A stretch of 63,667 nt of DNA, the filler included, from Kipferlia bialata (lineage: Eukaryota), in NCBI GenBank assembly GCA_003568945.1. It is 3 parts of 3 records of this genome, joined end to end, with 100 filler letters (N's around TTAATTAATTAA, not from the genome) between each part and the next. Parts side by side here need not be neighbours in the genome. Positions count along the whole stretch, not along the records: positions 1 to 28,106 come from BDIP01000157.1; 2 more parts are not named here. The stretch is one strand, 5' to 3'. A program made the position numbers and the translations under genes. Within the stretch, counting starts at the first letter, position 1. Each line of letters opens with the position of its first letter. The notes below the pieces were generated by a model that was not told where the DNA came from, made no database searches, and worked only from the letters and a program-made list of their open reading frames with translations. Of this stretch, positions 44-1,532 are shown in pieces.

Positions 44-1532
44 TGGTTCATGTTCGACCTGCAGTTCCTCCTACTGAGGCCAAGGTGCATATTTACATAT
101 TCATATATATGTATGTTTGATTAATATATGCACGCCTCTTTCAGTCATCGTATCAAGTTTATGTGTGTTATACTAGTTATATATAACCCCAGGCCCTTCT
201 ACGACCTTGCCAGGACACTCTTCCCAGACGGCACATTCAAGCCAACAGGTACTATAGTGTATGTATATTCATGTGCTAGACATCATAGGTTAGCTCTCTA
301 TTATACCATTAGGAATTGTTATCACTTCCTTTAACATTTAGACACCCACGTCTTCCTCCGCCTTCTCCATGACAAGGGCATCATCAAGACAATATATATA
401 TATATGTGAATATTGTCTATATGTATATAGTATATAGTATAACCACTCTAATTGCCTTCTTATACCAGACACTCACGTCTTCCTGCGCCTTCTCCATGAC
501 AAGGGCATCATCAAGACTATATGTATATAGATAAATAGATATATATATATATATTTATATATATATATATATATAGTATATATAGTGAATCCACTCTGAT
601 TGCATTCTTACCCTAGATACTCATGTCTTCCTGCGTCTCCTCCATGACAAGGGCATCATCAAGACAATCTTCACACAGAACATCGACAACCTCGAGGAGC
701 TGGCTGGGTAAGGCTGTATATATGAATTGTACACTACATTATATATATATATATTTGTGTGTAATTATATTGAACGTTGTATGTGTAGTTATAGAAAGTG
801 CCAGACAGGGACACAGAACATCGACAACCTCGAGGAGCTGGGTATGAAACACTATATAGATTTAGGTTTTGTGAGACAACCTGTATGAATCCATTTCCTT
901 TTGGAGTCAGAGACTGAATCTCTCTCCGACCCACTTCTGTATCAGGAATATACTCTCTCACCCCTAGTATCTCCCCATAGGTCTTTGTGCATGCCACATT
1001 AATCTCTCTTTCTCTCTCTCTCTCTCTCTCTACACTCTTACATTTCTCTAACTCCTAGCATCTCCCCCGAGGTCATTGTCCATGCCCACGGGTCATTCCT
1101 CAGTGCAGGTTGCGTAGGAAGGCGCACAGGTGAGAAGAGATGATAGTGTATACGCACACATATATATGCATAGAGAGAGAGAGACATGTAAACGGGTCAT
1201 TCCTCAGTGCAGGGTGTGTGGGGAGGAGGACAGGTACACTCGATGGATTGCCCCAACTACATAATATATGGTAATATTCATATTTTCTTCTTATCTCACT
1301 CCAGGCTGCCCAGGCCCCAGGAAGGCCCCCCTGCGTGCTGTGCGTGCTGCCACTCTAGACGGAGCAGTCCCACACTGTCCATTCTGTGGTATGTCTCTCT
1401 CTCTCTGCCCCTTATGTCATATGGATATAGTAATACTATACTGTATATATACTACACACTGTATATTATATATGTGTGTGTGTAGATGAGTATAGTGGGT
1501 GCAGTGCCACACTTCCCATTCTGTTTGCAGTA

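What the first reader, a model, noticed from the sequence alone, without database searches (positions are those of the whole stretch)
1059..1233. Echo with six silent changes in six codons, including an Arg CGC/AGG switch
Working exon end (1108-1129): GGT TGC GTA GGA AGG CGC ACA G|gt. Intronic copy (1192-1233): GGG TGT GTG GGG AGG AGG ACA G|gt. Both read GCVGRRT, which includes a sirtuin zinc-binding Cys. Six substitutions with no amino-acid change, one a two-base Arg switch, imply long purifying selection on the copied version. In contrast, the 5' copy at 968-997 carries a stop codon and a deletion, so echoes exist at different decay stages.
Basis: seen in the sequence. Interest (0 to 1): 0.8.

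Follow-up and report, generated by a model that had tools for sequence, protein, structure and literature searches.

The report
Old allele exon halves inside introns
In a free-living protist, a spliced-out copy of half a sirtuin exon differs from the working exon only by silent changes, as do many similar copies in its conserved genes, likely because DNA repair between diverged alleles left former working versions in the introns, so that one genome would hold a record of its population's old alleles.

Summary
Confirmed. 1192-1233 copies the last 42 nt of sirtuin exon 1059-1129 with six silent changes in five codons. One DNA contig spans both copies without a difference, and an RNA contig splices 1129 to 1305, skipping the copy. 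Window proteins match records named Kipferlia bialata. Such 'echoes' are pervasive: 105 in three genes, and intron length rises about 108 nt per echo. A dead copy of a protected exon predicts a four-fold/zero-fold divergence ratio near 2. Sirtuin-domain echoes give 9.9, and echo-versus-echo 6.4; a kinesin array shows 13 of 13 silent. Less conserved regions fit plain decay. Best reading (0.55): untranslated junction duplicates whose coding part came from, or is refreshed by, diverged working alleles; a toy model needs allelic silent diversity of about 0.2, which is not shown. Rivals: plain decay (0.2); an in-frame 21-nt microexon at 1213-1233 that holds all six changes (0.15). The scan noted junction echoes on other DNA, explained there by plain decay. 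New variant of exon-boundary repeats; interest 0.55.

The parts
1059..1129 (+). Working exon 4 of the sirtuin gene (71 nt), ending in the GCVGRRT codons
   Evidence: RNA contig of X2 matches it with 0 other letters and joins it to 1305; unique 32-exon path to P0004
1130..1304 (+). Intron 4 (175 nt, GT..AG) that contains the echo
   Evidence: Joint skipping 175 nt, GT..AG
1192..1233 (+). 3' echo: copy of exon positions 30-71, 22 identical nt then six silent changes, followed by its own GT (1234-1235); possible degenerate extension to 1185
   Evidence: donor score 7.5, 20 of 56 real donors score lower
1213..1233 (+). Possible 21-nt in-frame cassette inside the echo (internal CAG acceptor plus echo donor); holds all six changes; not seen in RNA
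   Evidence: Acceptor score 7.9, 16 of 56 real acceptors lower; 1 of 3 in-frame cassettes among 81 echoes; no RNA depth at 1137-1289
1172..1184 (+). (AG)n tract just before the 3' echo junction
   Evidence: Sequence; junction tally
968..997 (+). 5' echo: acceptor AG plus exon positions 1 to about 30, with a stop codon, I>F, three silent changes and a one-base loss; ends where the 3' echo begins
   Evidence: acceptor score 10.6
1003..1031 (+). (CT)n tract just after the 5' echo junction
   Evidence: Sequence
1305..1388 (+). Exon 5, splice partner of exon 4
50..11309 (+). Sirtuin gene model (P0004, 716 aa, 32 exons) carrying 51 echoes on 22 of 32 exons
   Evidence: exons 4 and 5 and the adjoining ends of exons 3 and 6 are read-supported, the rest is a database model
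2583..2925 (+). Four 5' echoes of exon 2962-3046; 20 of 20 differences from the exon are silent, and the echoes differ from each other only silently
51804..52365 (-). Five 3' echoes of kinesin exon 52426-52497; 13 of 13 differences silent (independent gene)

Best explanation
The 42-nt copy is a spliced-out duplicate of the exon's 3' half and donor site whose letters likely come from a different, once-working allele of the same exon, placed or refreshed there by mismatch-tolerant recombination, which would explain why it differs only silently. Shown: both copies lie in cis; the one mRNA contig uses the full exon; echoes sit on about 60% of exons in three genes; their junctions carry (CT)n on the strand leaving the exon; in conserved exons, silent divergence far exceeds what a dead copy can gain. 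Inferred mechanism: (1) a break inside the exon is healed by copying a complete exon with short intron flanks from a homologous chromosome, the loose end being joined through a (CT)n or (AT)n tract, so that the displaced half stays in the intron; only outcomes with one whole exon survive; (2) later conversion and unequal exchange, confined to the coding homology, add copies and reset them to working versions from other alleles while the flanks drift apart; (3) the spliceosome pairs the nearest acceptor and donor across a short exon, so echo sites without a partner are ignored; (4) echoes decay slowly (about 0.025-0.035 per constrained site) and are lost.
For: Cis and spliced out. Pervasive: 51 echoes on 22 of 32 exons, 30 on 15 of 26, 24 on 9 of 15. 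Silent excess beyond the dead-copy null: gene 1, 63 of 94 distinct changes (P 7e-8 at kappa 2, 4e-3 at the extreme); exons 3-9 without the focal echo, 38 of 54 (P 8e-6); four-fold 44/124 against zero-fold 19/529; survives permissive ends, 52 of 78; kinesin 28 of 44 (P 0.004). Echo-versus-echo in exons 3-9: four-fold 28/91, zero-fold 20/420. Echo-private changes in gene 1 are silent in 27 of 43 cases against 24% expected. One echo has an AGT/TCA serine switch. Toy simulation: own-chromosome origin or conversion gives ratios 1.6-1.9; inter-allelic exchange gives 4.0-8.7 at theta 0.1-0.2. Innermost 5' and 3' echoes meet within 10 nt in 9 of 12 exons (null 4.3, P 0.005), and within 1 nt in this exon. 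Junctions, pooled over: (CT)n after 29 of 54 5' echoes and (AG)n after 0; (AG)n before 9 of 51 3' echoes and (CT)n before 1. Flanks are old: the exon's own flank is the best match for only 19 of 69 echoes, and the focal flanks score 1 of 50. Echo splice sites score like real ones (40 of 40 acceptors, 25 of 28 donors). Context: metamonads lack NHEJ, and all examined Fornicata lost Rad51A and keep two Dmc1 paralogs (PMC8516963 section 8); Dmc1 stabilises mismatched heteroduplex (PMC6719624 abstract); K. bialata appears diploid by k-mers (PMC5874029 passage).
Against: No diverged allele has been seen. None was laid at this locus (although contigs drop variants), the three proteins sit in one-member clusters, and two metagenome scans found no close relative (0 matches; 13 loci at 31-35% identity). 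The required silent diversity (about 0.16-0.23) is very high. The excess is patchy: gene 2 (23 of 45, P 0.08; echo-private changes silent in 4 of 17) and sirtuin exons 10-32 (19 of 34; 29 of 68 with permissive ends, P 0.44) fit plain decay; why conserved exons carry the excess is unexplained. Breakpoints agree within 5 nt in only 4 of 12 exons (P 0.17). The (AG)n signature is absent in gene 2 (0 of 14) and weak in gene 3 (1 of 13). In the focal echo the changes cluster in the possible cassette (0 of 22 against 6 of 20, P 0.007 post hoc). The simulation is a toy with 8-25 replicates per setting.
Confidence: 0.55

Rival explanations
1. Plain dead copy: a tandem duplication from the same chromosome, after which the working exon gained silent changes and the echo decayed at random; the focal case is a lucky draw picked from many echoes.
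For: Fits gene 2 and sirtuin exons 10-32. All 14 changes private to working exons are silent. Explained similar echoes in two earlier notes of the scan. The 5' echo of the same exon carries a stop and a one-base loss, and the 3' echo's possible 7-nt extension has two non-silent changes.
Against: Predicts a four-fold/zero-fold ratio near 2 against 9.9 observed, and little excess between echoes against 6.4 observed. 4 of 51 echoes have 6 or more silent and 0 non-silent changes; 13 of 13 silent in the kinesin array. The zero-fold transition:transversion count of 20:30 rules out the high transition bias that would soften the test.
Confidence: 0.2
2. The last 21 nt of this echo are a working or formerly working microexon under protein-level selection: either included after exon 4 (a 7-residue repeat in the zinc ribbon) or used in place of the exon end through the internal G|GT at 1108.
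For: All six changes lie in 1213-1233 and none in the 22 nt before. Acceptor 7.9 and donor 7.5 are within the real range; it is in frame; only 7 of 81 echoes can form any cassette and 3 an in-frame one. Contigs drop minor forms.
Against: No RNA contig covers it. The internal donor at 1108 scores 1.1, with 1 of 56 real donors lower. The smallest of 54 internal exons is 35 nt. The 22 never-translated nt should have diverged and have not. Gene-1 echoes without an in-frame cassette still show 74 silent against 30 non-silent changes, so the pattern does not need translation.
Confidence: 0.15
3. The diverged donor was a paralog or homeolog (lost or unsampled) rather than an allele.
For: The excess is concentrated in conserved domains (sirtuin, kinesin), where paralogs stay alignable; the AGT/TCA and CGC/AGG switches suggest deep divergence.
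Against: No second locus was laid on either coding copy at 80% likeness or more in the whole DNA run. Arrays contain five or more distinct versions. Intron positions and some flanks match the host exon exactly.
Confidence: 0.08
4. Assembly artefact: the second allele stacked in tandem.
For: The species appears diploid; scaffold gaps fall inside some echo arrays; X1 may be the assembly's own source.
Against: A separately assembled contig spans both copies with no difference at ordinary depth. The shared identical stretch is shorter than the 31-letter words of the run index. The echo is a half exon with its own flank, and arrays hold up to six versions, more than a diploid supplies.
Confidence: 0.02

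Closest known systems
Human F7 IVS7 37-bp VNTR with silent 5' pseudo-sites (PMC1557585, abstract seen)
   Same: A repeat whose first unit spans the exon-intron boundary; downstream donor copies stay unused while the most upstream one is chosen.
   Different: One locus of near-identical fixed-length units there. Here echoes occur on most exons of three genes, on both acceptor and donor sides, with diverged spacers, (CT)n/(AG)n junctions and a silent excess.
Intron gain by tandem duplication of an AG|GT site, and internal gene duplication (PMC3265369, abstract and discussion; PMC3443670 passages; Gao and Lynch 2009 seen only as cited there)
   Same: Short intragenic duplication that leaves the protein unchanged; this exon has AG|GT at 1107-1110 opposite AG|GG in the echo.
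   Different: The duplicate includes an existing splice site and enlarges an existing intron; the RNA contig does not splice between the copies, and only 9 of 82 echoes have such a route.
Exon-junction echoes noted earlier in this scan (e1-9861148, e1-7810567; AI notes)
   Same: Intronic copies of exon junctions with a silent bias.
   Different: There the silent share was 43 of 107 and 13 of 49, put down to plain decay. Here it is 44 of 60 in sirtuin exons 3-9 and 28 of 44 in kinesin, above that null.
Gene conversion between duplicates in a polymorphic population (recalled theory; toy model)
   Same: Exchange among copies and alleles sets copy-to-copy divergence near allelic diversity.
   Different: Applied here to 15-50 nt untranslated exon halves inside introns.

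Membership tests
Sirtuin (Sir2) host gene | SIR2 domain above the Pfam cut-off | tested here: met
   PF02146, 113 bits against cut-off 24
Sirtuin (Sir2) host gene | Catalytic-region His motif and four Cys aligned with solved sirtuins | tested here: met
   Alignment to SIRT3 4fvt, E 3e-41; the echo's Cys is the first Cys; zinc role recalled
Exon-boundary VNTR (F7 IVS7 type) | Unit spans an exon-intron boundary and copies the splice site | tested here: met
   AG kept in 25 of 27 and GT in 18 of 23 anchored echoes of gene 1
Exon-boundary VNTR (F7 IVS7 type) | Near-identical head-to-tail units of fixed length | tested here: not met
   Focal flanks unrelated (score 1 of 50); own flank is best match in 19 of 69 echoes; a few young arrays are near-identical
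Exon-boundary VNTR (F7 IVS7 type) | Pseudo-sites unused in mRNA | tested here: met
   One RNA contig, focal intron only; minor forms not visible
Exon-boundary VNTR (F7 IVS7 type) | Copy number varies between individuals | not testable with these tools
   Both listed runs are one sample; no relatives found
Intron gain by AG|GT tandem duplication | Splicing from GT in the first copy to AG in the second | tested here: not met
   RNA joint is 1129>1305; donor at 1108 is weak
Duplicated or mutually exclusive cassette exon | Whole exon copied with its own acceptor and donor | tested here: not met
   Echo lacks exon positions 1-29; only an internal 21-nt cassette is possible
Duplicated or mutually exclusive cassette exon | Inclusion in some mRNA | tested here: inconclusive
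   No RNA depth on the echo, but only contigs were available
Decaying pseudo-exon (dead copy) | Four-fold/zero-fold divergence from the working exon near 2 | tested here: not met
   9.9 in exons 3-9; 4.2 and 5.1 in other sets, which are not significant under harsher nulls

The most novel reading that the evidence does not exclude
In this NHEJ-less, Dmc1-only lineage, breaks inside exons are routinely healed by importing a whole exon from a diverged homolog and parking the displaced halves in the flanking introns behind (CT)n joints. Introns then grow by about 108 nt per event, and one genome carries a stratified archive of former alleles from which population silent diversity, repair outcomes and exon-definition rules can be read across its roughly 125,000 introns.
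Probability: 0.3. Interest if true: 0.8.

Novelty: new variant of a known kind. Interest (0 to 1): 0.55.

Why it matters
If right, a single protist genome would record many past working alleles of its conserved exons, giving diversity estimates without population sampling. It would show what double-strand-break repair leaves behind in a lineage reported to lack NHEJ and Rad51A, and it would account for much of the species' intron length (119 nt plus 108 nt per echo in the gene measured). Thousands of strong but ignored splice sites make a natural test of exon definition in a cell reported to have a reduced spliceosome (87 of 174 proteins, PMC6679479 passages). Practically, echoes that translate to perfect peptide matches can mislead gene models. 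If plain decay is right, it is still an unusually dense case of a known kind.

Tried and rejected
No whole genome is held, so all counts come from this window. Read support covers only 1035-1530; other exons rest on database gene models. The run search listed no holder on record as RNA; X2 is treated as RNA because its contig is spliced. Relatives or other strains: degenerate motif scan, 0 matches; protein scan, 13 distant sirtuins; one-member clusters; none of this is evidence on diversity. General dual use by in-register splicing: rejected, 9 of 82 echoes. Echo halves as two exons of an older intron: rejected, since most 5' echoes end in (CT)n or (AT)n and not in a donor. Conservative amino-acid changes in echoes: not seen (BLOSUM P 0.58 and 0.63). 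Codon-bias or GC direction: silent changes are balanced (37 S>W, 34 W>S) while non-silent ones lean to AT (32 against 12). Error-prone repair filtered by selection: rejected by argument, since six random changes are all silent at 2e-4. Fewer differences near the break end (65 against 97 per 988 sites): not used, because my trimming biases it. Frame-free phase test: positive for genes 1 and 2, minus 50300-56300 (P 0.0009) and minus 57100-63667 (P 0.04), not for minus 24200-28200 (P 0.45); its families overlap, so these P values are rough. Rows dropped before counts: alignments scoring under 25, low-complexity hits, and one microsatellite hit of exon 12 (dropped; kept, hence 52 and 82 there). 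Control: 20 hits of 25 or more in about 960 non-adjacent exon-intron pairs, the strongest being (AG)n matches.

Full report
Observation. The six silent substitutions, the CGC/AGG switch and the decayed 5' copy are in the sequence. They fall in five of six consecutive codons. The echo (1192-1233, plus GT) copies exon positions 30-71; its first 22 nt are identical to the exon. With permissive scoring it reaches back to 1185 with three more mismatches, two non-silent. Six random changes would all be silent with P=2.3e-4.

Host. Window proteins are identical to records named Kipferlia bialata. P0004 is a 716-aa sirtuin that maps by one minimal path to 32 exons at 50-11309. The echo's Cys aligns with the first Cys of SIRT3's first pair.

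Reads. Two runs of one sample were listed and laid on 1035-1530. One DNA contig covers the whole stretch without a difference, and nothing else was laid on either coding copy at 80% likeness, so the two versions are in cis and no paralog or second allele showed. One contig of the second run matches the exon exactly, skips 175 nt from GT to AG, and has loose ends that match the working versions of exons 3 and 6. Contigs drop minor forms, and the DNA run may be the assembly's source.

The echo is one of many. Aligning each exon to its neighbouring introns gave 51 echoes on 22 of 32 exons, 30 on 15 of 26 exons of a zinc-finger gene and 24 on 9 of 15 exons of a kinesin gene (two minimal paths there, one used). 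Upstream echoes copy an acceptor and an exon start; downstream echoes copy an exon end and a donor. Intron length in the sirtuin gene is 119 nt plus 108 nt per echo (r=0.95, 31 introns). Echo splice sites score like real ones (40 of 40 acceptors and 25 of 28 donors at or above the fifth percentile, against 17% and 14% of random intronic AG and GT), yet only 7 of 81 echoes could form an AG..GT cassette. I infer that exons are defined by the nearest acceptor-donor pair, as with the unused pseudo-sites of F7 IVS7 (abstract).

Is the silent bias more than a dead copy gives? A dead copy of a protected exon gives about 40% silent differences, or a four-fold/zero-fold ratio near 2. The sirtuin gene shows 63 of 94 distinct changes silent; exons 3-9 show 44 of 60 (38 of 54 without the focal echo), with four-fold 44/124 against zero-fold 19/529. 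The test holds under every mutation spectrum tried (P from 2e-8 to 9e-4 for exons 3-9) and with permissive ends (52 of 78). Echoes also differ from each other mainly silently in those exons (28/91 against 20/420). Four echoes have six or more silent and no non-silent changes, and one has an AGT/TCA serine switch. The kinesin gene repeats it: 28 of 44 (P 0.004; 0.036 against a 49% null), with 13 of 13 in one five-echo array. Against: the zinc-finger gene (23 of 45; echo-private changes silent in 4 of 17) and sirtuin exons 10-32 (19 of 34) do not clearly exceed the null. Zero-fold divergence is uniform across sets (0.024-0.036) while four-fold divergence ranges from 0.10 to 0.36. That reads as uniform slow decay on top of a variable divergence acquired while the sequences were working exons. 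Why conserved exons carry most of it is unexplained.

Anatomy of the junctions. (CT)n follows 29 of 54 upstream echoes and (AG)n none; (AG)n precedes 9 of 51 downstream echoes and (CT)n one. On the strand that leaves the exon both are (CT)n, which suggests one process acting on broken ends; the downstream signal comes almost wholly from the sirtuin gene. In this exon the 5' echo ends where the 3' echo begins. Over 12 exons with both kinds, 9 meet within 10 nt (P 0.005) but only 4 within 5 nt (P 0.17). Intronic flanks are much older than the coding match: the focal exon's and echo's donor flanks are unrelated.

Mechanism. I put 0.55 on echoes being untranslated duplicates whose coding part was taken from, or is refreshed by, diverged working alleles through homologous repair with a microsatellite-mediated joint at one end. 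A toy forward simulation gave ratios of 1.6-1.9 for own-chromosome origin or conversion, and 4.0-8.7 for inter-allelic exchange at theta 0.1-0.2, with pN near 0.03-0.045. The lineage is reported to lack NHEJ and Rad51A and to keep two Dmc1 paralogs, Dmc1 is reported to stabilise mismatched joints, and the species appears diploid. All repair steps are inferred, and the high diversity is not observed: no second allele, strain or close relative was found. Rivals are plain decay (0.2), a 21-nt in-frame microexon (0.15), a lost paralog (0.08) and misassembly (0.02). The microexon deserves its share because all six changes lie inside it and both its sites score well, but it is shorter than any of 54 internal exons, is absent from the RNA contig, and cannot explain the other echoes.

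Comparison with what is known. Repeats that span an exon boundary (F7 IVS7) and intragenic tandem duplications are known, and two earlier notes of this scan describe junction echoes on other DNA, put down to plain decay. I found no description of these echoes in K. bialata in searches of the held library; the genome paper's main text has no occurrence of 'duplicat' or 'microsatellite'. The library lacks most subscription papers, and no supplements were read. Papers seen: PMC5874029 (passages and methods section 7), PMC6679479 (passages), PMC3265369 (abstract, discussion), PMC8516963 (passages, section 8), PMC3443670 (passages), PMC6719624 and PMC1557585 (abstracts).

Verdict. Real, in cis, spliced out, and one instance of a pervasive feature whose silent excess in conserved exons is not explained by plain decay. 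New variant of a known kind; interest 0.55.

Noticed in passing
window 2227-2265: 3' echo of exon 7 with seven silent differences, including an AGT/TCA serine switch in the GTSL motif, and one K>R change.
   Followed up: partly
window 28151-28162 and 56281-56292: A 12-nt TTAA-repeat spacer between N runs, next to poly-G ends: the window appears to be several contigs joined (longest contigs 28,106 and 28,030), so its parts need not be neighbours.
   Followed up: no
window 9114-9195, 25236-25423, 54349-54430: Scaffold gaps fall inside echo arrays; possible copy-number differences between homologs, or unresolved repeats.
   Followed up: no
window 1-50: The RNA contig carries about 347 nt upstream of the 182 nt of exons 1-3 modelled here, so the sirtuin's N-terminal part likely lies outside the window and the database protein is truncated.
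   Followed up: partly
window 3589-6450: The sirtuin domain is interrupted by an acidic stretch of about 190 residues; residues 375-405 align weakly with the C-terminal part of SIRT3.
   Followed up: no
window 22256-22542: Near-identical 120-nt units including intron sequence (93 nt with 1 mismatch): the youngest stage of an echo array.
   Followed up: partly
window 11347-11367 and 24053-24076: Echoes of terminal exon ends including the stop codon region, where no donor site is involved.
   Followed up: partly
window 28200-50300: Almost free of echoes (1 family); holds several long open frames, e.g. 28767-29744 (-) and 48299-50404 (+, 701 aa).
   Followed up: no
window 12658-12764: A 32-nt identical pair in which the first copy ends before GT and the second starts after AG; which copy is the exon was not checked.
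   Followed up: no
window 56788-57120 (-): Open frame with Rab-like small GTPase motifs (recalled resemblance, not searched).
   Followed up: no
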